Made by a program: the position numbers and the translations under genes. This document shows, in pieces, positions 36-36,026 of a DNA stretch of 64,000 bases (positions within the stretch are counted from its first letter, which is position 1; the number at the start of each line of letters is the position of its first letter). Under the pieces are notes generated by a model. That model had not been told where the DNA came from, made no database searches, and saw only the letters and a list, made by a program, of their open reading frames with translations. Origin of the DNA: Patescibacteria group bacterium (GTDB taxonomy: Bacteria > Patescibacteriota > Patescibacteriia > PEXW01); the NCBI GenBank assembly GCA_038065235.1, contig JBBTRK010000005.1, positions 22,389 to 86,388 on the forward strand, in the 5' to 3' direction.

Positions 36-3000
36 GTGCTCAAGAACCTCAAGTTCAACGAAATTATACCCACCCCTCTGCCCTTGCCGCTGCTCACCAA
101 CCTGCGCGCCGACCTAAAGCGCATTCACGCCATGCAGGAGCTGGTCTTCGGCCTGGCGGACTACTATCAAGTGAAAAAAGCAAATCCTACGTTGGACACC
201 GGATCGTACATTAAGAATATGTCGTTCTCCGCCTGGCCATCTTGGCAGTCTTTGGGCAGTACGCTGGGCATTACCATGCCGCAAGATCCCGAAGTGCTGT
301 GGAAACCATCGTCAACCCTCTGCGGCACTGGGTTTGACCAGGGGTCGTGCTGGAATCAGGTGAGCAAAGTTATGCAGTTCCCCAGCGACAGCGCTGACCC
401 GCCCGAGTCGCACGGATTCGCCTATAAGTACGTCCCCGGCAACCCGCCGCTCGTCCCACCCAGCGTGCAGCTGTACGGCACAGGCAGTGCGAACATCCAA
501 AATCATGACACGACTCTCATTAGCTTCCCCAGTCCGGCGACAAGTATCTGTCCTACTACTTTGCCTCCTGCACCTGTGAATTCTTGCTTGGGCTTCAACT
601 TTGGCGTCAACGCGTCGAACTTTGGTCAGATGAGCGACTGGCGGTTGCCCAGTGCCGCAGACACGACGGCTCCAACGCCTGTAACCATCGATTCGCCCGT
701 GAATAATGACACAGTGTCTGGGGCAGTGCCATTCGTCATAACCGCCAGTGACGAAACCGGTGGCAGCGGCATGCAGCGGGTTGACGTGCAGATAAAGCGC
801 GGTACTACTATCGTGGCCTCAACCTCCATTGGCGCACCAGACAAAGATGGCAAGTACCGCTGGACCTGGAGTTCGCGCCTAGCGCTCAACAGTCCGCCCG
901 ATTACGACGTCACCGTCACCGCCTTTGACAAGGCCGGCAACAGCCAGGCTGCTCCAAATTTGCAGCTGACGCTCACCAACCCCCCTGCCGACAGCGAACC
1001 GCCAATAATTACCGCTTCGGCGCCGTCAACCACCTGGAATGGCAGCGCCAGCATTGTGGTTTCCGCTACAGCCACAGACGTCCACCCCACAGCCACGAAC
1101 AACACCAAAGTTGTGAAAATAGAGTTCTACCTTGGGAGTTCGAAGCTTGGGCAAGCACCAGACCCAATGTGTGCAGCCAATTGCCCCGATAGCTACACAG
1201 CAAACGTCACCATACCGGCCACAACCATTCGAGGATTTCCGAACGGGTCGTACACCTACTCAGTGGTGGCCTATGACGGCTTTGGTAATACGAGCATTAA
1301 GAACTATCCGGTTACTATCGACAAAACTAGCCCCGATTCCACCCCACCGCAGATACTTATTACGTTGCCAACGGGAACAGTGAGCGGGGCAAATACCGAT
1401 GTCGTTGCAACCGCAACTGATGCCAGCGGCATTGACCGCGTAGAGTTCTTAATTGATGGGATTCCCAAAACAGTAGACTTCAGCGGGCCGTACAGTTTTT
1501 CTTGGCTACTCAATGGTTACGCAGAAGGTCCACATACTATTACCGCCGTGGCGTACGATCGGTATGGCAACCAGGCCACTGCCACGCAGACCGTCACCTA
1601 TATGGTCGTCACCGGGCCAGATACGCAACGGCCGACCATTACTGATGTTACGGCCACGCTCGATACGAACGTTAGCATTCCGCTGGAAGGAGCTCAGTTA
1701 AGTAACAGAGTCACACTCAATGCCACACTCACCGACAACGTCGCCATACATAGAGCTGAGCTGCGTATTGATGGGGTGAAAATCCCGCTCATTGGTGGCG
1801 CGTACTACTGCGACACGCCCCAAAATTGTATCTTGGCGTACAGCTGGGATACGTTGCCCGAAACTGTGGGTCAACACACGGTAAGTATTACGGCATACGA
1901 TACCGCAGGATACGTCGTGACGGTGACGCAGATAGTGAACGTCGTCAACCAGGTAATTATGACCATCAGTTCGCCGCAGTCGGGCACGACGGTGAAAGAT
2001 TTACCTGCCGGTAGCACCTGTTCGAATAATCCGACGAAAACCTGTACGACCAATAGAGACTGTCCATTGGTTAAAGTTGGTTCGTGTGAATTGACCGGTA
2101 TAAAGTGCTATAATGACCCAATATGTGCTGGTGCTAATCCTGGAGACTTTTGTAACCGCCCGCTCGGCTCATGCAACGCCACGCCGGCGGGTATCCCGGT
2201 GGTCATTGACGTGACGCGGACGTGTAGTACAGATCTGACTCTCTCGAGCGTTCAGTTCTTCCTCGACAGCAGCCCCACCCCATTACCCGGCTCGGCAACT
2301 TGCACGTCTGGACGTTGCACCTACACTTGGAATTCCAAGACTACGACTTCAAATGGCTCGCATGTGTTAACCGCAATTGGGCAAGCAACACCTGCTAGCT
2401 GTAGAGGTGGGGCGAAGTCAACCATCGTGGTAAACAATGACGTCGTTGACACAACTCCGCCGGTGATAGACAGTTTCCAGTTCGGCGCCCAGACGTGGGG
2501 CTCTGCTCTGCCTAGGATTATTAACCGTGCAGGGAATATTACCGTAATAGCTAGTGACCCCGCGGGTGGCAGCGGCCTAGCGCAAATCACCATTGCCATA
2601 AACGGCACAACAGTGACAACCTGCAATACTGCGCCTATTGGCACTTGTCAGTACTTCTGGAGCCCTACTGACGGTGCGAACAACACGGTCACCATAGGCG
2701 TAACCGACGTCGCGGGGAACAGTGCGCCGGGCCAGAGCCAGATGGTGAACGTGGATACGACGCCACCAGATACTTCGACCTGGCAGTCACCTGCCACTAG
2801 TAGTATCGTCACGTCGCCGCCAGACGTCACTATGCAGGTCGCGGCGAGCGATCCTCAGATCAACGGGTACGCCTCGGGCATAGCTTCGGTGATTTTCTAC
2901 TATGTCGACACTGATGGTCTTATGTTCCCCCCCGATAGTACTGGATCGGGCGGAGTCTACTCATGGGTTGGGCAACCACCGGTTGGCACCGCAGAGTACT

Positions 3001-3488
3001 TTGCCGAAGTGAGAGACAACGCTGGAAATGTATTCACGACTACGCCGGTAGTAAGTATCACCGTTGTTGCACCCGATACTCGGGCACCGTGGGTGAATAT
3101 CACAATTCCTGACGGTGATGGTTATTACGTTAGCGGGATTTTCAACCCTCAAGCGTCCGCGGGCGATTGGGGTGGCACCGGTATCCGTGACGTGCAACTC
3201 TATCTGGATGGTGCCCCGCTCGGGGGTCCAGATGCGACGTCGCCGTACAACGCCAGTAGTGTTAACACCGCAGCAATGGCGGATTTGAGTTCTCACTCCT
3301 TGTACGCTGTGGCGTGTGATAGGGCAACCCCAACGAACCTGTGCACCACGTCAGCGACCCGTACGTTTCTGGTGAATAATGGCCCGGGGAGTAACTGTGG
3401 CCCACTCATTTGCAGCGGCGCCACGCCAGATTGTTGCGGTGGACCGCCCTTCTCGTGCATTACCCCTACCAGTCTTTGTTCAATATAG
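36..3488 (+). CDS. Giant secreted or surface protein with multiple bacterial Ig-like (group 3-like) repeats and Cys-rich segments. Possibly 5'-partial, because the frame is open to the window start.
   Basis: Recurrent V-T-A-x-D-x-A/G-G-N motifs (VTVTAFDKAGNSQA, VVAYDGFGNTS, ITAVAYDRYGNQAT, ITAYDTAGYVV, IGVTDVAGNSAP, EVRDNAGNVFT). Cys-rich insert (aa ~650-720) and Cys-rich C-terminus. GTG start at 36 with no upstream in-frame stop. Confidence 0.6.
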   Translation: MLKNLKFNEIIPTPLPLPLLTNLRADLKRIHAMQELVFGLADYYQVKKANPTLDTGSYIKNMSFSAWPSWQSLGSTLGITMPQDPEVLWKPSSTLCGTGFDQGSCWNQVSKVMQFPSDSADPPESHGFAYKYVPGNPPLVPPSVQLYGTGSANIQNHDTTLISFPSPATSICPTTLPPAPVNSCLGFNFGVNASNFGQMSDWRLPSAADTTAPTPVTIDSPVNNDTVSGAVPFVITASDETGGSGMQRVDVQIKRGTTIVASTSIGAPDKDGKYRWTWSSRLALNSPPDYDVTVTAFDKAGNSQAAPNLQLTLTNPPADSEPPIITASAPSTTWNGSASIVVSATATDVHPTATNNTKVVKIEFYLGSSKLGQAPDPMCAANCPDSYTANVTIPATTIRGFPNGSYTYSVVAYDGFGNTSIKNYPVTIDKTSPDSTPPQILITLPTGTVSGANTDVVATATDASGIDRVEFLIDGIPKTVDFSGPYSFSWLLNGYAEGPHTITAVAYDRYGNQATATQTVTYMVVTGPDTQRPTITDVTATLDTNVSIPLEGAQLSNRVTLNATLTDNVAIHRAELRIDGVKIPLIGGAYYCDTPQNCILAYSWDTLPETVGQHTVSITAYDTAGYVVTVTQIVNVVNQVIMTISSPQSGTTVKDLPAGSTCSNNPTKTCTTNRDCPLVKVGSCELTGIKCYNDPICAGANPGDFCNRPLGSCNATPAGIPVVIDVTRTCSTDLTLSSVQFFLDSSPTPLPGSATCTSGRCTYTWNSKTTTSNGSHVLTAIGQATPASCRGGAKSTIVVNNDVVDTTPPVIDSFQFGAQTWGSALPRIINRAGNITVIASDPAGGSGLAQITIAINGTTVTTCNTAPIGTCQYFWSPTDGANNTVTIGVTDVAGNSAPGQSQMVNVDTTPPDTSTWQSPATSSIVTSPPDVTMQVAASDPQINGYASGIASVIFYYVDTDGLMFPPDSTGSGGVYSWVGQPPVGTAEYFAEVRDNAGNVFTTTPVVSITVVAPDTRAPWVNITIPDGDGYYVSGIFNPQASAGDWGGTGIRDVQLYLDGAPLGGPDATSPYNASSVNTAAMADLSSHSLYAVACDRATPTNLCTTSATRTFLVNNGPGSNCGPLICSGATPDCCGGPPFSCITPTSLCSI

Positions 3489-3516
3489 GTGACGGTGGTG
3501 GGTAACAATATTCAAT

Positions 3517-4143
3517 ATGCCAGATCAACCAAAAGATATTTTCCAAGAGGTCGAGCCCGCAGCAGATGCGCAACCGGTTCGCCGTGCAGTTCCGGCAGCC
3601 CCGGTTATCCCGTCGGTTGTACCAACCCCAGAAATTCGGGGTGTACAACCTGCCCGCTATGACTCGCAGCGCGTGGCAGGCGGGCCGCGACGTTCACGCA
3701 TGCCTTTTCTGGTCGGTGGGGCAGTCGTGCTGCTCATCGGCATTGTGGCAGTTGTGGTACTGGTGCGCCGACAAACCCCAGCACCTGTGGTCCAGAGTAA
3801 TGTGCAAAATAGCAATACAACAACGAATGCCGCAGCAGCCACGACGAACACCCAACCTGCGCCGGTAGTGGTTCAGCCAGAGGTTGTTGCGAACGATGCG
3901 GACCGCGATGGCCTGACCACCGATGAGGAGCAGAAGCTAGGAACCAAGGATACGCTGGCAGATACCGATGGTGACGGCTTGAGTGACTGGGACGAGGTGA
4001 AAGTGTACAAGACCAACCCGCTGAAGCCGGATACGGATGGCGATGGGAACGCCGATGGCGCTGAAGTAAAAAAAGGGTATAATCCAAATGGTTCTGGCCT
4101 GCTCCTAGATTTTGAGGCCGCCAAGCAGAAGCTCACCAAGTAA
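3517..4143 (+). CDS. Membrane-anchored protein with thrombospondin type-3-like Ca-binding repeats.
   Basis: Pro-rich N-terminus, one TM helix, then DxDxDG repeats (DADRDGLTTDEE, DTDGDGLSDWDE, DTDGDGNADGAE). Confidence 0.65.
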   Translation: MPDQPKDIFQEVEPAADAQPVRRAVPAAPVIPSVVPTPEIRGVQPARYDSQRVAGGPRRSRMPFLVGGAVVLLIGIVAVVVLVRRQTPAPVVQSNVQNSNTTTNAAAATTNTQPAPVVVQPEVVANDADRDGLTTDEEQKLGTKDTLADTDGDGLSDWDEVKVYKTNPLKPDTDGDGNADGAEVKKGYNPNGSGLLLDFEAAKQKLTK

Positions 4144-5341
4144 TTTTTCTTCTCCTTCACGCCACACGCGTATGTTCGAATCTGTTACCCCCTCGGGAGC
4201 GAATACCCCAGCAACCCAAGTTCCGGCCCCACCTACCACGCCACTAGAAATACACAGCATGCCTGAGCGCTTCCTGGGGAGTAAATCCCCGTTAGGCAAA
4301 GCGCCGGTGCCAGGCGGAAAGGGGAGTAGCAAGAAGCTCATTATTGCTATTGGCATTATCGTCGTGGTTGCGCTTGGTGCCGCCGCCGCGCTTATGTTTA
4401 CCGGCGTGCTGAATAAAAACGCCGCGAATACGAATAACGCTAATTTGGTGACGAACGCACCGGCAACCAACACGAATAAGAATGTAAACCTGAACGGGAA
4501 TAAGAATACCAACGGGAATAGCAATGCCAACGTTAATGCCAATTCGAATGCTAATGCAAATGGAAACACGAACGTTAACGTGAATGCAAATAGTAACGCC
4601 AATACGAATGCGAATCAAAACGTGAATAGCAACCCAACAGCAGCCTCCAGCGCCGACGCCGACAAAGACGGCCTCACCGATGCAGAGGAGACATTATTCA
4701 CCACTAACCCAAGTGTCGCAGATACCGATGGTGATGGTTTCACCGATAGCAGCGAAGTGAAGTTTGGGTACAATCCTAAAGGCAGCGGGAGACTCGTGGC
4801 CAGTAATCTCATTTCCACATTCACGAACTCGCTCTATGGGGCAAGCGTGTTGTACCCCAAAGGCTGGTTAAGCGTAGCTCGCAGCAGCACCGAGCAGCTT
4901 ATCTCTAACCCAACCGGTGATGAAACTGTAACGGTTGCGGTGGAAGACAACCTCGCCCGGCTCACGGCGAAGCAGTGGTACATTACCAAAGCGCCGAGTG
5001 CAGACATCGCGTCACTGGTGGATGCGGCGGCGTGGGATGGGAAGAGCACAGGGGTCATTAGTCCAGATGGTTTGGCTTACTACTTTGCCAACGGCAATCA
5101 GGTGTTCGTCATCTCCCTTAGCTATGGTTTGAAGCCAACAGTGGATTCCCGAACAACCTTCGAGATGATTGCACGTAGTCTTGTGGTGGATTCGACAAAA
5201 GTGAACGTCAACGTGAATACGAATACGGCAAACCTAAATTTCAATGTGAACACCACGTTGAATACTAATTCTAATGCAAACACAAATCTTAATAGCAACC
5301 TAAACACCAACAGCGCGACGAATCTCAACGTGACTCCGTAA
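4112..5341 (+). CDS. Paralogous membrane-anchored TSP3-repeat protein with Asn-rich low-complexity linkers. The start is uncertain; ATG at 4172 or 4259 are alternatives.
   Basis: TM helix, then NANSNANANGNTN-type tract, then DADKDGLTDAEE and DTDGDGFTDSSE repeats. C-terminal NVNTN tract. Overlaps the upstream gene by 32 nt if the start is taken at 4112. Confidence 0.6.
   Translation: MRPPSRSSPSNFSSPSRHTRMFESVTPSGANTPATQVPAPPTTPLEIHSMPERFLGSKSPLGKAPVPGGKGSSKKLIIAIGIIVVVALGAAAALMFTGVLNKNAANTNNANLVTNAPATNTNKNVNLNGNKNTNGNSNANVNANSNANANGNTNVNVNANSNANTNANQNVNSNPTAASSADADKDGLTDAEETLFTTNPSVADTDGDGFTDSSEVKFGYNPKGSGRLVASNLISTFTNSLYGASVLYPKGWLSVARSSTEQLISNPTGDETVTVAVEDNLARLTAKQWYITKAPSADIASLVDAAAWDGKSTGVISPDGLAYYFANGNQVFVISLSYGLKPTVDSRTTFEMIARSLVVDSTKVNVNVNTNTANLNFNVNTTLNTNSNANTNLNSNLNTNSATNLNVTP
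4425..4640 (+). repeat. Tandem AAT/GCN/AAC codon repeats encoding a poly-(N-x) low-complexity linker. A second tract lies at about 5200-5335.
   Basis: Visible aatgccaat, aatgcgaat and aacgtgaat iterations in the sequence. Confidence 0.7.
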
Positions 5342-8786: not shown

Positions 8787-9090
8787 TTGACTAGGGCGTT
8801 GAGCCTTAGCCTCCGCCAGAGGCGGAGGGGAGCGTGACCGCTTGTCACACGCCTCTTTCACAAAAGCAACACCACGTTTTGCTGTTCGCCTGCATTCGTA
8901 AGGTGTCCAGCCCGCCCGCCTCCGCCTAGTGCTCGGCATTGGCGGGCAGGCCCGCCGTTGCCTCCCGCACCAGTCCTGTCGCCCCCTAGGCGAGAGGTCA
9001 ACATCGTTGTACGATGGTGACCCCGCCCGCCACGCGTTGCCGCGAGGCATTGCGGGCAGGCTCAGCGGCTGCTGCTTTCTCGTCCACGCT

Positions 9091-9627
9091 ATGAAGTGCC
9101 CTGCCTGCCACAAACTTGATACTCGGGTCATGGATTCCCGGCTCATTGAGGATGGAATGGCAATTCGCCGACGCCGCGAGTGTGCCCGCTGTGATTTTCG
9201 CTTCTCGACCATCGAAGAGACGGAAATTCTGAACCTCACGGTCATCAAGCGGGATGGTCGGCACGAGCCATATAGTAGGGAGAAGATGGAGACAGGCCTC
9301 CGCCGCTCATTCCAGAAATTACCGATCACGCAGGATGAATTGAAACGTCTGGTTAACCACATTGAGCGGGATATCCAGATCACTGGTCGACAAGAGATAA
9401 AGAGCGCTGACATTGGGGACATCCTAATGAAGCACCTGAAGCGGGCGAATCACGTTGCGTACATTCGCTTCGCCTCGGTGTACCGGTCATTTAAAGACGT
9501 TGAGACCTTCCAGCGTGAACTCCACAGCCTGCTGAAGCCCGCCCGGCACCGGCCCGACACGCTGCGCGAGTCGAAGCGGGCGGGACGCCGTCTGGCGGAC
9601 GAGCCCGCCCGTCGAGCTAAGCGCTAA
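9091..9627 (+). CDS. nrdR: Transcriptional repressor NrdR (Zn ribbon + ATP cone).
   Basis: Starts MKCPACHK...ECARC (zinc ribbon), followed by an ATP-cone. The longer GTG-initiated ORF from 8929 is rejected because NrdR begins at the zinc ribbon. Confidence 0.88.
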   Translation: MKCPACHKLDTRVMDSRLIEDGMAIRRRRECARCDFRFSTIEETEILNLTVIKRDGRHEPYSREKMETGLRRSFQKLPITQDELKRLVNHIERDIQITGRQEIKSADIGDILMKHLKRANHVAYIRFASVYRSFKDVETFQRELHSLLKPARHRPDTLRESKRAGRRLADEPARRAKR

Positions 9628-9666
9628 ATTAATAAATTACCCTTCGCTCTTAAAGACTCTGCGACC

Positions 9667-12600
9667 ATGCCGCACGTCACCCTCCGCGATCCTGCTACCC
9701 AAACTGCCACGGGCAACTATCCCGCGCATGGTTTGCGTATTACGCGTCGTCATACAACCGTGGGGGTGGACCCGCTCGAGCAGCTGACTTATGAGAAGCG
9801 TTCCTCGGTCATCAAGAATCCGGACGGCCGCATCGTCTACGAGATCACCGACGTGGAAGTCCCCACCAGCTGGTCGCAGGTTGCCACAGATATTTTGGCG
9901 CAAAAGTACTTCCGCAAGGCGGGTGTGCCGGTGCTCGACGAGCAGGGGCAGCCGATGCTGGATGGACAGGGGAACGTTGTCACCGGCTCGGAGAAGAGCG
10001 CTAGGCAAGTCGTTCGGCGCATGACCATGTGCTGGCGCTGGTGGGGTGAGCAGTATGGCTACTTCGCCTCGCCCGAGGATGCGCAGGCGTACCAAGATGA
10101 AATGGCGTACTTCCTCATCCACCAGATGAGCGCGCCGAATTCCCCGCAGTGGTTCAACACCGGCCTGCACACGGCCTACGGCATCACTGGCCGACCGCAG
10201 GGGCACTACTACGTCGTCCCCGAAACTGGCGAAGTGGTGAAGTCCGAGGATGCCTACACCCACCCCCAGCCGCACGCGTGCTTCATCCAGAGTGTCTCGG
10301 ACGACCTGGTTGGTGAAGGTGGCATCTTTGACCTTATGACCCGCGAAGCGCGACTCTTCAAGTTTGGCTCTGGCACGGGCAGCAACTTCTCGAGCCTTCG
10401 TGGTCGGGGTGAAAAGCTCGGTGGCGGTGGGACGTCGTCGGGCATGATGTCGTTCCTGAACGTCTTCGACCGTGCCGCGGGCGCCATTAAGAGCGGCGGC
10501 ACCACGCGGCGGGCAGCCAAGATGGTCATTGTGAACGTCGACCATCCCGACGTGGAAGAGTTTATCAGCTGGAAGGTTAAGGAGGAGCAGAAGGTGGCAG
10601 ACCTCGTCACCGGCAGCAAACTTAACGCCAAATATCTGAACGCAATCATGACCACGGCCCATGCCGAAGGGGCCACCGCCCTCACCCAGTCACCCGCGCT
10701 CAAGGCGCTTGTGCGCAAAGCCGTCGCTCACGAGGTGCCGCTTAACTACATTGCCCGCGCACTGGACTTGGTTCGCCAAGGCAAGACGTCAATCGATTTC
10801 CACATCCTCGACACGCATTTCGAAGGCGACGCGTACAATACCGTTTCGGGCCAGAACAGCAACAACACCGTGCGCGTCACCAACGAGTACATGGACGCGG
10901 TGCGAGTGAACGCCCCATGGAACCTCACTGCGCGCGTCACTGGCGATGTCGTGAAGACCATCCCGGCGCGTGAGCTGTGGGATACAATTGGTTACGCCGC
11001 GTGGTCCTGCGCTGACCCAGGCTTGCAATTCGACACGACGATCAATGAGTGGCACACCTGCCCGGTGGACGGCCGCATCAATGGTTCGAACCCATGCAGC
11101 GAGTACATGTTCCTGGATGACACGGCCTGCAACCTCGCTTCTATGAACTTGGCCAAGTACCTCGACGCCGATACCGGCACCTTCGACGTGGATAGCTACC
11201 GTCACAGCATTCGGCTGTGGACCGTCACGCTCGAGCTCTCGGTGCTCATGGCACAGTTCCCAGGCAAGGAGATTGCGCGCCGCAGCTACGCCTACCGTAC
11301 ACTCGGCTTGGGGTACGCCAACCTCGGTACCGTGCTCATGACCATGGGCATTCCGTACGACTCTGACGAAGCCCGCGCCATTGCCGGCAGCCTCACCGCC
11401 ATTATGACCGGCGAGTCCTACGCCACCAGCGCCGAAGTGGCCAGCGTCGTCGGGGCATTCCCAGCCTACGAGCGGAACAAGCGCCACATGCTCCGTGTTA
11501 TCCGCAACCACCGTCGCGCCGCCTACAATGCACCCGCCGATGAGTACGAAGGCCTCTCCATCACCCCGCAGGGCATCAACCACAGTGCTGTCCCGCCCTA
11601 CCTGGGTGACGCCGCCAAGCTGGCCTGGGATCGAGCTATTACCCTGGGCGAGCAGCACGGTTTCCGGAACGCACAGACCACAGTTATTGCACCCACTGGC
11701 ACGATTGGCCTCATCATGGATTGTGACACCACCGGCATCGAGCCAGACTTCGCACTCGTGAAGTTCAAGAAGCTCGCTGGCGGGGGATTCTTCAAGATCG
11801 TGAACCAGTCCATGGACAAAGCCTTGCGCCATTTGGGTTACACCGAGCCGCAGGTGAGAGACATTGAGAATTTCGCCAAGGGTCACGGTACGCTCGTGGG
11901 TTGCCCTGCCATAAACCCGCAAGAGCTCCGTGAGAAAGGTTTCACCGACGCTGACCTAGCAAAGGTCGAGGCCAACCTGAAGACTGCCTTTGACCTCCGT
12001 TTCGCTTTCACCCCTTTCGCGCTCGGGGCCGAAGCACTGACGCGCGCTGGCCTCACCGACGTACAGGTTGCAGACCGTGAGCTTAACGTCCTGGGTGCGC
12101 TCGGCTTCACCGATAGGCAGGTCTCGGAAGCCAACGAGTACGTCTGTGGCACCATGACCATCGAAGGTGCTCCACACCTGAAGCCCGAGCACCTGCCGGT
12201 GTTTGACTGCGCCAACCGCTGTGGTGCCAAGGGGAAGCGCTTCATCGCCTACGACGCGCACCTGCAGATGATGGCGGCAGCCCAGCCATTCATTTCTGGC
12301 GCAATTTCCAAGACCATCAACATGCCTAACGAGGCCACGCTCGTCGACATCGAGCAGGCGTACCAGAAGAGCTGGAAGCACATGCTGAAGGCCGTGGCTC
12401 TCTACCGCGACGGCTCCAAGCTCTCCCAGCCGCTCAACACCATTGCCGGTCTGGATGACCTGGGTCAAGCCGAGACCACCGCGGAAGAGACTAACGAGCA
12501 GGTCACGCCCAAGCAGGTGAATGATGCTACGGCTGCGCAAGCTGCCGGTCAGGCCATCCGCCATGCCTTGCCGAACAAACGCCACGGCTTCGTGCAGAAG

Positions 12601-13179
12601 GCGTACGTCGGCGGGCACAAAGTCTACCTCCGCACCGGCGAGTACGATAACGGCCAGATCGGCGAGATCTTCGTGGACATGTACAAAGAGGGGACTGCCT
12701 ACCGCAGTCTACTCTCTATGTTCGCCATTTCTATTTCCAAAGGTTTGCAGTACGGCATTCCGCTAGAGGAGTACGTCGACACCTTCACCTACACGCGTTT
12801 CGAGCCGGCTGGCACGGTCCAGGGTCACGAGAACGTGAAGATGGCCACATCCATCCTAGACTACGTGTTTCGCGTGTTGGGCTTCGAGTACCTAGGCCGC
12901 ACAGACCTGGTGCACATTAAGCCCCAACTGAAAGTCGATGAGAAAGAACTCCATGTTCCGGCACCGATCCAGCAAGCGACGCTACCCATGAATGTCCAGA
13001 CGACCGCGCAGCGAGATGCCACGAAGAGCAACGTGAGCTTCGGCATGCAGGACAAGGACGAAGCGCGCCAGCAGGGCTTCACCGGCGACCAGTGCGTGGC
13101 CTGCGGGAGCATGAAGATGAAGCGCAACGGCACCTGCATCCTCTGCCTGGACTGCGGCGAGACAACGGGGTGTAGCTAG
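9667..13179 (+). CDS. nrdJ: Class II adenosylcobalamin-dependent ribonucleotide reductase (NrdJ-like, long form).
   Basis: Active-site region SNPCSEYMFLDDTACNLASMNL. C-terminal CxxC...CxxC zinc finger (CVACGS...CILCLDCG). ~1170 aa is typical of long NrdJ. Confidence 0.82.
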   Translation: MPHVTLRDPATQTATGNYPAHGLRITRRHTTVGVDPLEQLTYEKRSSVIKNPDGRIVYEITDVEVPTSWSQVATDILAQKYFRKAGVPVLDEQGQPMLDGQGNVVTGSEKSARQVVRRMTMCWRWWGEQYGYFASPEDAQAYQDEMAYFLIHQMSAPNSPQWFNTGLHTAYGITGRPQGHYYVVPETGEVVKSEDAYTHPQPHACFIQSVSDDLVGEGGIFDLMTREARLFKFGSGTGSNFSSLRGRGEKLGGGGTSSGMMSFLNVFDRAAGAIKSGGTTRRAAKMVIVNVDHPDVEEFISWKVKEEQKVADLVTGSKLNAKYLNAIMTTAHAEGATALTQSPALKALVRKAVAHEVPLNYIARALDLVRQGKTSIDFHILDTHFEGDAYNTVSGQNSNNTVRVTNEYMDAVRVNAPWNLTARVTGDVVKTIPARELWDTIGYAAWSCADPGLQFDTTINEWHTCPVDGRINGSNPCSEYMFLDDTACNLASMNLAKYLDADTGTFDVDSYRHSIRLWTVTLELSVLMAQFPGKEIARRSYAYRTLGLGYANLGTVLMTMGIPYDSDEARAIAGSLTAIMTGESYATSAEVASVVGAFPAYERNKRHMLRVIRNHRRAAYNAPADEYEGLSITPQGINHSAVPPYLGDAAKLAWDRAITLGEQHGFRNAQTTVIAPTGTIGLIMDCDTTGIEPDFALVKFKKLAGGGFFKIVNQSMDKALRHLGYTEPQVRDIENFAKGHGTLVGCPAINPQELREKGFTDADLAKVEANLKTAFDLRFAFTPFALGAEALTRAGLTDVQVADRELNVLGALGFTDRQVSEANEYVCGTMTIEGAPHLKPEHLPVFDCANRCGAKGKRFIAYDAHLQMMAAAQPFISGAISKTINMPNEATLVDIEQAYQKSWKHMLKAVALYRDGSKLSQPLNTIAGLDDLGQAETTAEETNEQVTPKQVNDATAAQAAGQAIRHALPNKRHGFVQKAYVGGHKVYLRTGEYDNGQIGEIFVDMYKEGTAYRSLLSMFAISISKGLQYGIPLEEYVDTFTYTRFEPAGTVQGHENVKMATSILDYVFRVLGFEYLGRTDLVHIKPQLKVDEKELHVPAPIQQATLPMNVQTTAQRDATKSNVSFGMQDKDEARQQGFTGDQCVACGSMKMKRNGTCILCLDCGETTGCS

Positions 13180-13297
13180 ATGTAACGACAACTTCCCCCT
13201 GCCCCCTCCTTGGTAAGGAGGGGGTTTCGTGTAGACCAGCTTCCTCCCTCCCCTTGAGAAGGGGAGGGTTGGGGTGGAGTTGGAGTATACTCGGGGT

Positions 13298-13660
13298 ATG
13301 ACTCGCCTCATCAACCGAAGCACGGAAAAAGCAAAGCGCCGGACGTTGCGAAATGCGATGCCAAAAGCGGAATATATCCTCTGGCAGCAGTTGCGTCGAA
13401 AGCAAATTGCAGGAGTGACGTTTCGCCGTCAGGTAAGTGTTGGGAAGTACGTCGTGGATTTCTACTGCTCCGCAAGGCGATTGGCAATTGAAGTAGATGG
13501 CGAAACACATATTGGAAAAGAAGCGGAGGCATATGACGCTGAGCGACAAAAATATCTAGAAGACCTAGGTATTCGCGTTATCCGTTTCTGGAATACTGAT
13601 GTGTATAAAAATTTGGCGGGTGTGATTGATGAGGTACTCCACGTTGTTAGAAAGATATGA
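13298..13660 (+). CDS. DUF559 endonuclease-domain protein (Vsr-like fold).
   Basis: YVVDFYC, LAIEVDGETH, RQKYLEDLGIRVIRFWNTDV. Start chosen at the internal ATG; ATG at 13274 is also possible. Confidence 0.7.
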   Translation: MTRLINRSTEKAKRRTLRNAMPKAEYILWQQLRRKQIAGVTFRRQVSVGKYVVDFYCSARRLAIEVDGETHIGKEAEAYDAERQKYLEDLGIRVIRFWNTDVYKNLAGVIDEVLHVVRKI

Positions 13661-14390: not shown

Positions 14391-14733
14391 CTCTGGTCTT
14401 GCGACGGCTTTATTGCGGTGGCCATAGGCAGTAGCTATTCGCTGGATTTTTCTAGGTCTAGGTGCAACTTTGAGATTGCATAGATAACCTCAAGGGCATT
14501 GAGTTCAGGGCGGTCTTCGGTGAGTTGATCAGTGTAGTCGATGGGGTGTTTCATAGAGTATGAAAAGTTAACCCAGGACTTTAGCATTGGTAACCCGCTA
14601 TGTCAACCAAAGAAAAAAGGCCCCGCAGGAGCCTTGCCAGGGGGGGAGGAAATCTGGCTCAGCATCCCAGAGCGGGGCCGAAGATCAAGACGAAAGATTG
14701 TATTTTTGTGTCGGTTTCCGTACTCTACATGGC

Positions 14734-15321
14734 ATGGTCAAAGCAGTCAAGCGTATAGCCCCAAAGAAGCTCCGTCCCTTCCCCCACGGCATCACCGTGG
14801 CGTACATTGGCGATGGCAAAGGCAAGACCACAGCTGCGGTTGGGGCAGCCACTCGAGCCGCTGGCTACGGCTGGAAGGTGCTCTTTTTGCAGTTTTACAA
14901 AAGTATCGATTGGCCATCCGGTGAACGCGAGGCACTGCGCAAGCTCGGCGTGGACGTCGAGGTACACGGCGCAGGGTTTGTTGGAATCCTCGGTGATCGG
15001 AAGCATCTGCGTGAACACCAGCAAGCTGCTCAACGTGCGTTGCGTGTAGCGTGGGCACACATCCTCTCGGGCAAGTACAAGCTCGTCGTGCTGGATGAAG
15101 TGATTTCTTGCCTCGAACAGAAACTCTTTCCGGTCAGCACGCTCGTACAGTTTTTTCAGAAGCGTCTGCAACACGCCAAAGCCAAGAACGTACACCTCGT
15201 CCTCACCGGTCATCAACAGTTCCCTGCAATCCTCAAGTACTGCGATGTGGTGACAGAGATGAATATGCTGAAGCATCCGTACTATAAAGGCTTCATTGCC
15301 GTGAAGGGGATTGATTTTTAA
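14734..15321 (+). CDS. cobO: Cob(I)alamin (corrinoid) adenosyltransferase, CobA/CobO/BtuR family.
   Basis: P-loop GDGKGKTTAAVGAATRAAGYG, KVLFLQFYK, and overall collinearity with CobO. The 5' extension to 14587 is judged non-coding. Confidence 0.85.
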   Translation: MVKAVKRIAPKKLRPFPHGITVAYIGDGKGKTTAAVGAATRAAGYGWKVLFLQFYKSIDWPSGEREALRKLGVDVEVHGAGFVGILGDRKHLREHQQAAQRALRVAWAHILSGKYKLVVLDEVISCLEQKLFPVSTLVQFFQKRLQHAKAKNVHLVLTGHQQFPAILKYCDVVTEMNMLKHPYYKGFIAVKGIDF

Positions 15322-15334
15322 TTGGTGGTGTGTT

Positions 15335-15545
15335 CGGCATGTGCTATAGTCAGAAAGCTTTGAAAATCAGCAAGGCAAACCGGTGTGAATCCGGTACGGT
15401 CCCGCCATGGTATCTCGACGCCTAGTCCTTTGGACAGGGCAGACGAGTAGTCCAACGCCTATTCTGCCCACCTGGGCAGGATGAAGACAAATCCTTCGGG
15501 AAAAGGTCGAACAAGGATGGAACCTGTCCTGCGACTGCCCTGATG
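15335..15545 (+). ncRNA. Cobalamin (B12) riboswitch.
   Basis: Core GGTGTGAATCCGGTACGGTCCCGCCATGGTA matches the conserved GGUGnnAAUCCgg...GGUCCCGCCACUG B12-box region. Lies 5' of a DUF4430/ECF-S operon. Confidence 0.65.
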
Positions 15546-15577
15546 TCGTAGGCATTTCGTATTTAAGAAATTATTAT

Positions 15578-16027
15578 ATGGATCAACAACAGCCAGTTCA
15601 GCCTGTCTCAAATAAAAAACCAGAAGTGCAAAAATCTCCTCGCGTCCTGTGGTGGCTTGTGGTCATGATCGTTGTCGCCTTGGGGTTGGGCGTGTGGTCA
15701 CGAGTGAGTAAGTACAAGGCGAACACGAACGGGAATACGCCAACTGCGAATACGAACGTCGCCGTAAACACGAATGCTGCTACGAGTTACCTGTATTCTG
15801 GTCAGGATGGGAAGACCGCCTTGGAACTCCTGAAGACTGCCTACCCGAATACGACGACCAAGTCATCAGGGAGCCTCGGTGAACAGGTCATGAGCATAAA
15901 TGGGAAAGAAGCCAAGTCCAATGAGTACTGGCAGTTCCTCGTGAACGGCACAGCAGCGACCGTTGGTGCGGGTTCCTACGTAACTAAGTCCACGGACATG
16001 ATTGAGTGGAGGCTTACTTCGTTCTAA
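15578..16027 (+). CDS. Membrane-anchored DUF4430 protein (transcobalamin-like B12-binding fold, as found in B12 uptake loci).
   Basis: TM anchor, poly-N linker, then GKTALELL...YWQFLVNG...GAGSYVTKSTDMIEWR, characteristic of DUF4430. Confidence 0.6.
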   Translation: MDQQQPVQPVSNKKPEVQKSPRVLWWLVVMIVVALGLGVWSRVSKYKANTNGNTPTANTNVAVNTNAATSYLYSGQDGKTALELLKTAYPNTTTKSSGSLGEQVMSINGKEAKSNEYWQFLVNGTAATVGAGSYVTKSTDMIEWRLTSF

Positions 16028-16037
16028 CTTCATACTC

Positions 16038-16577
16038 ATGCGCCTCCGTCAGCACCTTACGATAACGAACGGAATACTCGTCCTGCTCATTGCCTTTGCG
16101 GCGGCGGCACGGTTCTGGCCCCACCCGGCGAATTTCGCGCCGGTGGCCGCCGTGGCACTTTTCAGCGGCGTGTACCTGGGCAAGCGTGCGTCGATCGTTG
16201 CGCCGGTCATCGCCATGGTCATTTCGGATATGTTCCTGGGCATGCATAATCTCGTTTTCTTTACGTGGGGGAGCATGGCACTCGTGGGTGTCATTGGTTG
16301 GTGGGTGCGGGAGAAGAAGAATCCCGGCAGAATTGTACTCGGTGCGCTCGCTGGTTCGGCGCTGTTCTACTTCATTACAAATGGCGCGGTCTGGGCAATT
16401 GGGCAAGGCGCAAGTTACGCACACAACCTTACCGGGCTCACCCAGGCGTACGTTGCCGGGTTGCCGTTTCTGCGTAATACCCTAGCGGGTGACATGGTGT
16501 ACGTCGGCGTATTCTTCGGCATTGCCGAGCTTGCCTTTGCCTGGGAGCGGCGACGGTTGCGGGCACCAGCGGCGTAA
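16038..16577 (+). CDS. ECF-transporter S-component-like membrane protein. The B12 specificity (CbrT-like) is inferred from context.
   Basis: ~180 aa with 5-6 TM helices and a NFAPVAAVALFSG motif. Sits in the riboswitch operon. Start at 16038, just after the upstream stop. Confidence 0.5.
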   Translation: MRLRQHLTITNGILVLLIAFAAAARFWPHPANFAPVAAVALFSGVYLGKRASIVAPVIAMVISDMFLGMHNLVFFTWGSMALVGVIGWWVREKKNPGRIVLGALAGSALFYFITNGAVWAIGQGASYAHNLTGLTQAYVAGLPFLRNTLAGDMVYVGVFFGIAELAFAWERRRLRAPAA

Positions 16578-31753: not shown

Positions 31754-31829
31754 TGGCGGACCCGAAGGGAATCGAACCCTCGATCTTCTCCGTGACAGGG
31801 AGACGTGTTAACCGCTACACTACGGGTCC
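31754..31829 (-). tRNA. tRNA-Asp (GUC), CCA-encoded.
   Basis: Reverse complement GGACCCGTAGTGTAGCGGTTAACACGTCTCCCTGTCACGGAGAAGATCGAGGGTTCGATTCCCTTCGGGTCCGCCA. Anticodon loop CTGTCAC. Confidence 0.93.
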
Positions 31830-35622: not shown

Positions 35623-36026
35623 TGGTGGAGATGAGGGGTCTTGCGCCCCTGTCTAGAATGCGGCGGGCAGGTGGTCTACAGGTGTAGGGCGTTCACGGGT
35701 GTTTCGATTGTGCCGCATGGAGCGCCCAAGCTCGGCAGAATCTAGTGGAGGTGATTTTCGGTTGCGCTGTTACCACACCCACGCAACCTACGCCTGAATT
35801 ATGACACTCGCAATTCCCGCGCCAGGCCGCGGGGCGAATGGGTTATCGGTTTTTAAGCGAGAACCGGAGCAAAGCTGGGCATTGCGAACGCGTTAGCGAA
35901 CGCAGTCTTCACTTTGCTGACAATGTTATTGGCAGTTGTCAATTTGTCCAGCAGTTTCACGCCGTGCCGAACGAGGGCGACCCGCACACTTACCGTAATG
36001 CAATCTATCAACTAATGGACATCCCC
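35623..36026 (-). ncRNA. ssrA: tmRNA (ssrA).
   Basis: Lies immediately downstream of smpB. The 5' GGGGAUG pairs with 3' CAUCUCC-A-CCA to give a 7-bp acceptor stem with a G3-U70 wobble (the AlaRS identity element). A T-arm-like GGGG-CGCAAGA-CCCC sits before the 3' end. An internal tag frame reads ...ANAFAMPSFAPVLA with TAA at 35853-35855. Confidence 0.6.

What the first reader, a model, noticed from the sequence alone, without database searches (positions are those of the whole stretch)
15335..15545. Cobalamin riboswitch upstream of the DUF4430/ECF-S operon
The sequence ...AGCAAGGCAAACCGGTGTGAATCCGGTACGGTCCCGCCATGGTA... reproduces the conserved core of the B12 element. Downstream GGGCAG...CTGCCC and CCTGGGCAGG...CCTGTCCTGC pairings could form the expression platform that occludes the weak RBS of the 15578 gene.
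Basis: partly seen in the sequence, partly recalled or inferred. Interest (0 to 1): 0.5.

Follow-up and report, generated by a model that had tools for sequence, protein, structure and literature searches.

The report
Divergent vitamin B12 riboswitch, terminator-controlled
This is a real but divergent vitamin B12-sensing RNA switch from an uncultivated ultra-small (Patescibacteria) bacterium; it falls below the standard database cut-offs and most likely shuts off two B12-uptake genes by ending transcription early, not by hiding the ribosome-binding site.

Summary
The B12-like core is present as described (15369-15412). No Rfam model reaches its gathering score. The best match is a local hit to AdoCbl RF01482: 33.2 bits against a cut-off of 50, E=0.029 for the whole window. 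Its 3' half is mis-aligned onto a window-specific hairpin.

Comparison rescues the call. Twenty distinct orthologous leaders, all upstream of DUF4430-DUF6580 in Patescibacteria, share the element. 19 of 39 helix pairs show compensatory changes (0 of 500 shuffles reach this). One member (L003) passes RF00174. A model built without the window hits it once, at 15369-15512 (123.9 bits, E=2.4e-30).

Architecture: a four-way junction P3-P6, an extra hairpin P7, and a P13 hairpin whose loop CGGGA matches the L5 consensus UCCCG.

The expression platform is an intrinsic terminator (15528-15552 plus a U-rich tail). It competes with an anti-terminator built from L13 and the 3' side of P13. [quoted passage not shown] RBS occlusion is not supported.

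Verdict: an ordinary function in a divergent new member of a known class. The riboswitch call is supported; the proposed platform is not.

The parts
15322..15350 (+). Inferred promoter: weak -35 TTGGTG (15322-27), 17-nt spacer, extended -10 TGcTATAGT (15342-50). The inferred RNA start is near 15357.
   Evidence: TGnTAnnnT is conserved at the same distance from the aptamer in most of the 16 aligned leaders. It is not called by the generic promoter scan because the -35 is weak. Inference only.
15357..15372 (+). Conserved 5' leader GCUUUGAAAAUCAGCA; pairing partner unresolved.
   Evidence: Conserved in most members. Two candidate partners each give about 89% pairing with weak covariation.
15373..15460 (+). 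Aptamer core, a four-way junction. P3 15373-76/15457-60; P4 15379-83/15391-95 with L4 UGUGAAU; P5/L5 15397-15406 (L5 UCCCG 15400-04); P6 15408-10/15452-54; P6 extension hairpin 15414-48; B12-box-like AGUCCAACGCC 15449-59.
   Evidence: Coordinates. Compensatory changes in P3 (1 of 4 pairs), P4 (3 of 5), P6 (2 of 3) and the outer P6 extension (2 of 3), with 96.7-100% of cells paired. Local Rfam hit. Family model hit.
15461..15482 (+). P7 hairpin AUUCUGCCC-ACCU-GGGCAGGAU, directly 3' of P3. It occupies the place of the 3' strands of P2/P1 in class I riboswitches.
   Evidence: 5 of 7 counted pairs have compensatory changes. Also recovered by RNAalifold on an uncurated alignment.
15483..15506 (+). 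Linker GAAGACAA plus the P13 hairpin (CCUU 15493-96 / AAGG 15503-06) with loop L13 CGGGAA (15497-15502). CGGGA is complementary to L5 UCCCG, giving a five-pair kissing loop.
   Evidence: Invariant in the 20 close members. L052 has CCUC/GAGG (compensatory), and L029/L042 keep P13 while losing the alternative UUCG fold. The L5 consensus and five-pair kissing loop are as in PMC10327014.
15496..15544 (+). Anti-terminator (ligand-free state): UCGGG 15496-15500 with CCUGA 15539-43; GGUCG 15505-09 with CGACU 15532-36; CA/UG; and the apical P14 hairpin AGGAUGG 15514-20 / CUGUCCU 15524-30.
   Evidence: It is the minimum-energy fold of the transcript truncated before the terminator's 3' strand in 20 of 20 members. 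In the window it is also the MFE of the transcript ending at the terminator (-19.2 kcal/mol, 0 of 8 terminator pairs). 98.1% of cells are paired but only 1 of 16 pairs is compensatory. L003 and L106 reach the same logic with different sequences.
15528..15564 (+). Intrinsic terminator: stem CCUGCGAC 15528-35 / GUCGUAGG 15545-52, 9-nt loop UGCCCUGAU 15536-44, U-rich tail CAUUUCGUAUUU 15553-64.
   Evidence: 6 of 8 stem pairs have compensatory changes, and a U-run follows in all 20 members. The generic scanner calls the orthologous hairpin in L003 and L107, and a site in L106, but not in the window, where the loop exceeds its 8-nt limit. It forms 8 of 8 pairs when P13/L13 are locked.
15578..16027 (+). 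Regulated gene 1: membrane-anchored DUF4430 protein with a transcobalamin beta-domain-like fold; probable cobalamin capture protein.
   Evidence: PF14478 51.8 bits. Weak match to the transcobalamin-2 beta domain, PDB 5no0, E=0.022. DUF4430 is the C-terminal domain of TCN proteins (PMC4350170). The hydrophobic N-terminal segment is visible in the translation.
16038..16577 (+). Regulated gene 2: DUF6580 membrane protein (mechanical ORF starts at TTG 16002; likely start ATG 16038). It is a remote relative of the B12-specific ECF S-component CbrT.
   Evidence: PF20221 161.9 bits. Homologues are about 179 aa. The profile hits PDB 6fnp chain A at E=7.3e-5; 6FNP is ECF-CbrT (PMC5997447).

Best explanation
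The 15357-15564 leader is a lineage-specific (Patescibacteria), divergent cobalamin riboswitch that represses the DUF4430-DUF6580 operon by premature transcription termination. The aptamer is a four-way junction (P3-P6) with the class-wide L5 loop UCCCG. It has no clear P1/P2 and carries an extra hairpin, P7. When a corrinoid is bound, L5 (15400-04) kisses L13 CGGGA (15497-15501) and locks the weak four-pair P13. The segment CCUGCGAC is then free to form the terminator with GUCGUAGG, and RNA polymerase stops in the U-rich tail before the ATG at 15578. Without ligand, L13 and the 3' flank of P13 (UCGGG, GGUCG) pair with the terminator loop and 5' strand (CCUGA, CGACU) around hairpin P14. That forms an anti-terminator, so the two probable B12 capture and uptake genes are transcribed. 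Shown here: the conserved, covarying aptamer helices, P7 and the terminator; the B12 gene context; homology to Rfam-passing riboswitches. Inferred: ligand identity, the kissing loop, the anti-terminator, and the sign of regulation.
For: Aptamer: 20 distinct orthologous leaders; 98.2% of cells paired; 19 of 39 pairs with compensatory change; 0 of 500 shuffles reach this; slid registers give 4 or fewer (independent counts). The hallmark GCCACUG...CAG is replaced by GCCAUGG...CCA or GCCACGG...CCG, which are compensatory P6 pairs (C-G 12, U-A 8). Homology: L003, with the same synteny and the same P13 block, passes RF00174 at 36.2 against 31.5. 12 of 12 relatives have their best Rfam hit to the cobalamin clan at this site, 17.3-31.3 bits. 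Model R1, built without the window, hits it once at 123.9 bits, E=2.4e-30, and cross-detects the Rfam-positive L004, L005, L009 and L013. Eight of the first 20 DUF6580 loci carry a gathering-level Cbl-clan riboswitch. Context: NrdR, B12-dependent class II RNR, CobA adenosyltransferase, then the leader, a transcobalamin-like DUF4430 and a CbrT-like DUF6580. Platform: terminator covariation in 6 of 8 pairs with a U-run in all members; the scanner calls the orthologous hairpin in L003 and L107, and a site in L106. The anti-terminator is the MFE in 20 of 20 truncated transcripts. In the window, apo gives the anti-terminator (0 of 8 terminator pairs) and holo gives the terminator (8 of 8). The terminator-loop motif CCUGA, complementary to UCGGG, is kept even where the terminator stem differs (L106, L107). 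L003 uses different sequences for the same logic. The design matches the experimentally dissected repressing P. megaterium metE riboswitch (PMC10327014).
Against: No Rfam family reaches its gathering score on the window. P5, P13 and the kissing loop are invariant in the close family, so covariation says nothing about them. The anti-terminator has only 1 of 16 compensatory pairs, and the energy of the window's truncated fold is not unusual against shuffled tails (67 of 500). With P13 locked, the full terminator is the MFE in only 7 of 20 members; in 13, P14 keeps the lower three terminator pairs. The window's U-tract is interrupted and the generic scanner does not call the terminator. My structure and curated alignment were derived from the same sequences on which I counted pairs. 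RNAalifold on an uncurated alignment recovers only P3 and P7. No ligand binding was tested.
Confidence: 0.8

Rival explanations
1. One reading: a cobalamin riboswitch that acts on translation. Pairings GGGCAG/CUGCCC and CCUGGGCAGG/CCUGUCCUGC form a platform that occludes a weak RBS of the 15578 gene.
For: The complementary segments exist. The P7 3' arm can form a duplex of about -13 kcal/mol with 15523-32 in the window, and -10 to -17 kcal/mol in most members. Many known cobalamin riboswitches are translational (PMC10327014).
Against: The pairing is lost in L095, L096, L106, L107 and L109 (-4.5 to -6.2 kcal/mol). The arm is already held in the covarying P7 hairpin. All these segments end by 15540, at least 38 nt before the ATG. 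No Shine-Dalgarno-like sequence precedes the ATG in the window or its relatives. A covarying hairpin followed by a U-run lies between them and the gene.
Confidence: 0.06
2. A genuine cobalamin riboswitch of opposite sign (activating). With P13 locked by the kissing loop, AAGGAUGG is free to form P14, which removes the lower three to four pairs of the terminator, so B12 turns the operon on.
For: With P13/L13 locked, P14 plus a shortened five-pair hairpin is the MFE in 13 of 20 members. P14 covaries at one pair and always overlaps the terminator's CCU(G). An activating corrinoid riboswitch exists (A. halodurans cobT, PMC10327014).
Against: In the window itself, locked P13 gives the full terminator, 8 of 8 pairs. 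The orthologue L003 has no P14, and its P13 3' strand AAGG pairs directly with the terminator's 5' CCUU, which is the repressing design. In L107, the G-to-A change in the lower terminator stem is compensated in the terminator (A-U) but breaks the P14-base pair. Repression is the norm for uptake genes (established knowledge of the B12 regulon).
Confidence: 0.1
3. Not a working B12 sensor. Either a decayed relic or chance resemblance, or a conserved leader that senses something else (another corrinoid precursor, or a protein).
For: It is below the gathering score of every Rfam model. The B12 box departs from consensus. There are no clear P1/P2. The window has a unique 35-nt P6 extension and a weak U-tract.
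Against: Twenty orthologues are under purifying selection with compensatory changes. The exact L5 consensus and a complementary L13 are present. Sequence and structure run continuously into Rfam-passing riboswitches. The gene context is strictly B12-related. The downstream genes are intact.
Confidence: 0.04

Closest known systems
Rfam Cobalamin riboswitch RF00174 (clan CL00101)
   Same: J3/4 AA; P4 hairpin with GGUGnGAAUCC; L5 UCCCG; GCCA(Y)NG entry into P6; AGYC...ACgCC 'B12 box'; position upstream of B12 transport genes. The orthologue L003 passes the model (36.2 bits) and L100 scores 31.3 against 31.5.
   Different: The window gives no reportable RF00174 hit. There are no convincing P1/P2. 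The P6 base is UGG/CCA instead of CUG/CAG. P3 has a fourth Watson-Crick pair where the consensus has G..A. The P6 extension is a short single hairpin rather than the P7-P11 peripheral domain.
Rfam AdoCbl RF01482 and AdoCbl-II RF01689 (short, class II-type aptamers)
   Same: A compact four-way junction closed by a single helix, with a downstream P13 kissing loop. RF01482 is the window's best hit (33.2 bits). RF01689 passes in other Patescibacteria DUF6580 loci (L004, L010, L011).
   Different: 33.2 bits against a cut-off of 50, and only model positions 24-97 align, partly onto the wrong hairpin. This family also has the additional P7 hairpin and a near-invariant 26-nt P13 block (GACAAAUCCUUCGGGAAAAGGUCGAA).
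Priestia megaterium metE repressing corrinoid riboswitch (PMC10327014)
   Same: L5 UCCCG. A five-pair L5-L13 kissing loop. A weak P13. [quoted passage not shown] Terminator formation when P13 is locked.
   Different: Here the L13 loop bases themselves (UCGGG) also pair with the terminator loop (CCUGA), and an extra hairpin (P14) sits inside the anti-terminator. Nothing was tested experimentally here.
ECF-CbrT vitamin B12 transporter (PDB 6FNP, PMC5997447) and transcobalamin
   Same: The DUF6580 profile matches 6fnp chain A (E=7.3e-5). DUF4430 matches the cobalamin-binding beta domain of transcobalamin (PMC4350170).
   Different: Both similarities are remote. That chain A (182 aa) is CbrT is my inference from its length and name. 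No EcfA/EcfT genes were found among the ORFs scanned, up to about 44 kb. Transport was not tested.

Membership tests
Cobalamin riboswitch (Rfam clan CL00101: RF00174, RF01482, RF01689) | Reaches the curated gathering score of a clan model | tested here: not met
   The window's best hit is RF01482 at 33.2 bits against 50. There is no hit in gathering mode. Relatives score 17.3-31.3 against 31.5 for RF00174. Only L003 passes, at 36.2.
Cobalamin riboswitch (Rfam clan CL00101) | Four-way junction P3-P4-P5-P6 with conserved J3/4 and the GGUGnGAAUCC P4 hairpin | tested here: met
   P3, P4, P6 and the P6 extension are 96.7-100% paired, and 8 of 15 pairs have compensatory changes. The core sequence matches the model consensus.
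Cobalamin riboswitch (Rfam clan CL00101) | L5 loop consensus UCCCG | tested here: met
   UCCCG is at 15400-15404 and is invariant in all 20 members. The consensus is as quoted in PMC10327014.
Cobalamin riboswitch (Rfam clan CL00101) | B12 box (consensus about AGYCMGGgAgaCCkGCC) forming the 3' side of P6, J6/3 and the 3' side of P3 | tested here: inconclusive
   The window has GAGUAGUCCAACGCCU (15445-60). AGUC and CC(U) are kept. CAG becomes CCA with a compensatory change on the 5' side. J6/3 is shorter. Rfam's own alignment put the box on the wrong hairpin in the window, but on this segment in L100.
Cobalamin riboswitch (Rfam clan CL00101) | L5-L13 kissing loop with a P13 hairpin downstream of the aptamer | tested here: inconclusive
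   Five contiguous complementary bases, CGGGA with UCCCG, are present. Both loops are invariant, so there is no covariation. P13 itself is supported by L052 (CCUC/GAGG) and by L029/L042.
Cobalamin riboswitch (Rfam clan CL00101) | P1/P2 helices enclosing the junction (class I architecture) | tested here: not met
   Only about 16 nt lie between the inferred RNA start and P3. A leader-linker 'P1' is 89% paired with weak covariation. The architecture is class II-like, with an added P7.
Cobalamin riboswitch (Rfam clan CL00101) | Located in the 5' leader of B12-related genes | tested here: met
   It lies upstream of DUF4430 (transcobalamin-like) and DUF6580 (CbrT-like), next to CobA and a B12-dependent RNR. 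The synteny is kept in 16 fetched loci.
Cobalamin riboswitch (Rfam clan CL00101) | Specific binding of a corrinoid | not testable with these tools
   This needs in-line probing, ITC or a reporter assay.
Repressing transcriptional corrinoid riboswitch (P. megaterium metE design) | Intrinsic terminator downstream of P13 | tested here: met
   An eight-pair stem with 6 of 8 pairs compensatory, followed by a U-run in all members. The scanner is positive in L003, L107 and L106 and negative in the window because of its 9-nt loop.
Repressing transcriptional corrinoid riboswitch (P. megaterium metE design) | [quoted passage not shown] | tested here: inconclusive
   It is the predicted MFE in 20 of 20 truncated transcripts, and the window switches cleanly. 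Three sequence designs keep the logic. But only 1 of 16 pairs is compensatory, and the holo-state predictions are mixed across the family.

The most novel reading that the evidence does not exclude
The leader belongs to a distinct Patescibacteria-specific subclass of corrinoid riboswitch. It has no P1/P2, an added P7, a near-invariant P13 module, and tolerated hairpin insertions in L4. Its ligand preference or regulatory sign could differ from the textbook case, for example activation through P14. It would mark DUF4430 plus DUF6580 as a previously uncharacterised two-component B12 capture and uptake system that works without a nearby ECF energizing module in organisms that cannot make B12.
Probability: 0.15. 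Interest if true: 0.55.

Novelty: new member of a known kind. Interest (0 to 1): 0.3.

Why it matters
In practice, standard Rfam annotation misses this riboswitch and at least 18 of its relatives, so B12 regulons in CPR/Patescibacteria genomes are under-called. Adding these sequences to the Rfam seed would fix that. Biologically, the riboswitch ties two domain-of-unknown-function genes (DUF4430, DUF6580) to cobalamin. This supports the idea that these reduced-genome bacteria scavenge B12 for their class II ribonucleotide reductase, and it gives a testable candidate uptake system. Mechanistically it adds a natural example, with three sequence variants, of the kissing-loop, P13 and anti-terminator logic that so far has been dissected in one Bacillus-type riboswitch. 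None of this overturns current understanding.

Tried and rejected
1. Rfam gathering-mode search of the window found no cobalamin hit. The permissive hit is local, and its 3' half is aligned onto the window-specific P6-extension hairpin rather than the true B12 box (compared).

2. Single-sequence folding of 15325-15600 is unremarkable (z=-1.6).

3. RNAalifold on an uncurated MAFFT alignment recovers only P3 and P7. It misses P4 and P6 because MAFFT split P4 around the L4 insertions.

4. An alternative local fold of the P13 region (UCC-UUCG-GGA plus GAC/GUC) was rejected as the conserved fold. L029 and L042 cannot form it but keep P13, and L052 compensates P13. It may still compete in the ligand-free state.

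5. A partner for the conserved leader GCUUUGAAAA was sought. Leader with linker ('P1') and leader with CAAGG were both inconclusive.

7. An AUCCUU/AAGGAU alternative pairing was considered as a switch element and dropped, because by inspection of the sequences it is absent in L096 and weak in L107.

8. Terminator-loop CCC as a mimic of L5 for L13 was dropped, because the CCC is not kept in L106 and L107. The conserved motif is CCUGA.

9. The generic terminator and promoter scan of the window was negative.

10. 12 of the 18 metagenome hits to the P13 block were chance matches inside coding sequence.

11. The search for a second copy in the window found none.

12. Literature searches found no paper on DUF6580 or on cobalamin riboswitches in Patescibacteria.

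Full report
**Observation.** The quoted core sequence is at 15369-15412 on the + strand, in the 256-nt gap between a CobA/BtuR-type corrinoid adenosyltransferase gene (14587-15321) and a DUF4430 gene (15578-16027). At gathering thresholds Rfam 15 finds only a tmRNA and a tRNA in the 64-kb window. In permissive mode the only riboswitch-like match is a local hit to AdoCbl RF01482 at 15371-15432. It scores 33.2 bits against a cut-off of 50 and covers model positions 24-97 of 149. Its E-value is 2.3e-4 for a 500-nt search and 0.029 for the whole window. The resemblance is better than chance, but on its own it does not establish membership.

**Organism and context.** Homologues of the second downstream gene (DUF6580) come from Patescibacteria/CPR genomes and metagenomes. 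The neighbourhood is a B12-salvage block:
- NrdR (8929-9627)
- a class II, B12-dependent ribonucleotide reductase (9667-13179)
- CobA (14587-15321)
- the leader RNA
- DUF4430 and DUF6580

DUF4430 has an N-terminal hydrophobic anchor. Its C-terminal domain weakly matches the cobalamin-binding beta domain of transcobalamin (PDB 5no0, E=0.022). Pfam's DUF4430 is the C-terminal domain of TCN proteins (PMC4350170). A profile of DUF6580 proteins hits chain A of PDB 6FNP at E=7.3e-5. 6FNP is ECF-CbrT, the vitamin B12 ECF transporter (PMC5997447). I infer that chain A (182 aa) is the S-component. Both regulated genes are therefore plausible B12 capture and uptake components.

**Comparative evidence.** I collected orthologous loci in three ways: a genome-collection scan with the DUF6580 alignment, a metagenome scan with a conserved downstream block, and contig look-ups for intermediate homologues. 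Synteny (CobA ... gap ... DUF4430, DUF6580, polysaccharide deacetylase, HtrA) is conserved. Twenty distinct versions of the leader were obtained.
- None of the 12 relatives tested reaches a gathering score. All 12 have their best Rfam hit to the cobalamin clan at the orthologous place, at 17.3-31.3 bits against 31.5 for RF00174.
- One member, L003, has the same synteny and the same downstream block, and it passes RF00174 at 36.2 bits.
- Of the first 20 DUF6580 loci, eight carry a gathering-level Cbl-clan riboswitch. Seven of these are upstream of the gene, and L009's hit lies downstream.
- A covariance model built from the 19 relatives without the window hits the window exactly once, at 15369-15512 (123.9 bits, E=2.4e-30, full length).
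- The same model cross-detects Rfam-positive cobalamin riboswitches in L004, L005, L009 and L013.

The lineage therefore sits just outside the curated thresholds but is continuous with the known class.

**Structure.** I anchored each sequence on conserved blocks to build a curated alignment. The helices in window coordinates are:

| Element | Coordinates |
|---|---|
| P3 | 15373-76 / 15457-60 |
| P4 | 15379-83 / 15391-95 |
| P5 / L5 | 15397-15406 (UCCCG at 15400-04) |
| P6 | 15408-10 / 15452-54 |
| P6 extension | 15414-48 |
| P7 hairpin | 15461-82 |
| P13 | 15493-96 / 15503-06, loop CGGGAA |
| Terminator | 15528-35 / 15545-52 |

On this alignment 98.2% of cells form standard pairs and 19 of 39 pairs show changes on both sides. 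None of 500 column shuffles reaches these values, and sliding the partners by 1-3 columns leaves at most 4 such pairs. My own counts agree.

The unusual 'GCCAUGG' that made the core look off-consensus is explained by covariation. The canonical CUG/CAG at the base of P6 is UGG/CCA or CGG/CCG here, and CUG/CAG in L003.

Rfam's local alignment in the window mistook a window-specific 35-nt P6-extension hairpin for the B12 box. The real box is GAGUAGUCCAACGCCU (15445-60), as Rfam itself aligns it in L100.

Caveats:
- I drew the structure from these same sequences.
- P5, P13 and the kissing loop never vary in the close set, so counting says nothing about them.
- RNAalifold on an uncurated alignment recovers only P3 and P7.

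More distant hits of the family model help with P13. L052 has CCUC/GAGG, a compensatory change. L029 and L042 keep a CCUU/AAGG-type stem with a CGG-initial loop, while being unable to form the competing UCC-UUCG-GGA fold.

**Expression platform.**
- CUGCCC/GGGCAG is the P7 hairpin.
- The long-range pairing of its 3' arm with CCUGUCCUGC is lost in five members.
- No Shine-Dalgarno sequence precedes the conserved ATG (MDQQQ...).

What is conserved is a hairpin, CCUGCGAC-UGCCCUGAU-GUCGYAGG, followed by a U-run. Six of its eight pairs show compensatory changes, for example CCUACGAC/GUCGUAGG in L107 and a different stem in L106 and L003. The generic scanner calls the orthologous hairpins terminator-like in L003 and L107, and calls a site in L106. 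The window's U-tract (CAUUUCGUAUUU) is also the weakest of the family.

Unconstrained folds revealed a mutually exclusive structure. UCGGG (the last base of P13's 5' strand plus L13) pairs with the conserved terminator-loop motif CCUGA. GGUCG (the 3' flank of P13) pairs with CGACU (the terminator's 5' strand). Both enclose hairpin P14.
- In transcripts cut before the terminator's 3' strand, this anti-terminator is the minimum-energy fold in 20 of 20 members.
- In the window, the transcript ending at the terminator folds into the anti-terminator when free (-19.2 kcal/mol, 0 of 8 terminator pairs). It folds into the full terminator (8 of 8) when P13 and L13 are locked, as a kissing loop would do.
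- L003 and L106 achieve the same logic with different sequences. In L003, CUUCGGGG pairs with CUCCCGAAG and AAGG with CCUU. In L106, UCGGGAAA pairs directly with UUUCCUGA.

[quoted passage not shown] That riboswitch also has L5 UCCCG and a five-pair kissing loop (PMC10327014).

Weak points:
- The anti-terminator has only one compensatory pair.
- With P13 locked, P14 retains the lower three terminator pairs in the predicted optimum of 13 of 20 members.

An activating variant, with P14 as a ligand-induced anti-terminator, therefore cannot be excluded. I give it about 0.1. The P14-less orthologue L003 and the compensated lower-stem change in L107 argue against it.

**Comparison and novelty.** Functionally and mechanistically this is a cobalamin riboswitch of the repressing, transcription-terminating kind, upstream of B12 uptake genes. 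That is the commonest context for this class. As a family member it fails the formal Rfam threshold, but it meets the junction architecture, the L5 consensus and the genomic context. It differs from the textbook form in these ways:
- no clear P1/P2
- an added P7 hairpin
- a compensated variant of the B12 box
- a near-invariant P13 module
- in some relatives, hairpins inserted into L4

I file it as a new (divergent) member of a known kind. I found no paper on cobalamin riboswitches in Patescibacteria or on DUF6580, but the searched library is incomplete.

**Verdict.** The riboswitch identification is right (confidence about 0.9 for a 'cobalamin-type aptamer', about 0.65-0.7 for 'OFF switch by termination'). 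The proposed check would have failed, and the proposed RBS-occluding platform is wrong. Interest is modest, at 0.3.

Noticed in passing
L085:5495-5535, L104:1855-1895, L099 and L105 (L4 of the riboswitch); L081:5270-5310 (P7 loop): Several relatives carry an extra 25-32-nt hairpin inserted into riboswitch loops. The L4 inserts of L085 and L104 and the P7 insert of L081 share the core CGAGCWWTGTCGAG. This pattern occurs nowhere else in the 110 fetched loci or in the window. It could be a small insertion element or a tolerated expansion; L4 normally takes part in a tertiary contact.
   Followed up: partly
L001:2480-2530, L085:5690-5725, L090 about 592-640 (- strand), L099:2030-2060: Directly after the terminator, some relatives have tandem TACGAAT-like units (for example TTTTTACGAATGTACGAAAAAAGATACGAATATACGAAATACGAATCC) between the riboswitch and the DUF4430 start. 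They are absent from the window. Function unknown.
   Followed up: no
window 15357-15366: The 5' leader motif GCUUUGAAAA is conserved in most family members, but it has no convincingly covarying partner. Two candidates were tested and each gave about 89% pairing.
   Followed up: yes
window 35623-36026 (-) and 31757-31829 (-): A tmRNA gene (75.7 bits, about 45-nt insertion relative to the model after the tag-coding region) and a tRNA gene. These are the only Rfam gathering-level hits in the window.
   Followed up: no
window 8929-13660: NrdR repressor, then a 1170-aa class II (B12-dependent) ribonucleotide reductase whose barrel domain matches in two stretches plus a TSCPD domain. A DUF559/restriction-endonuclease-like ORF (13274-13660) follows. 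The long RNR may carry an insertion.
   Followed up: no
window 16002-16038: The mechanical DUF6580 ORF starts at TTG 16002 and overlaps the end of DUF4430. Homologues are about 179 aa, so the likely start is ATG 16038, 10 nt after the DUF4430 stop. No EcfA/EcfT genes were found among the ORFs scanned, up to about 44 kb.
   Followed up: partly
window 36-5341: A large surface-type protein with bacterial Ig-like domains (Big_7, Big_13; 1150 aa), followed by two TSP3-repeat proteins at the start of the window. They sit upstream of ftsA and ftsZ.
   Followed up: no
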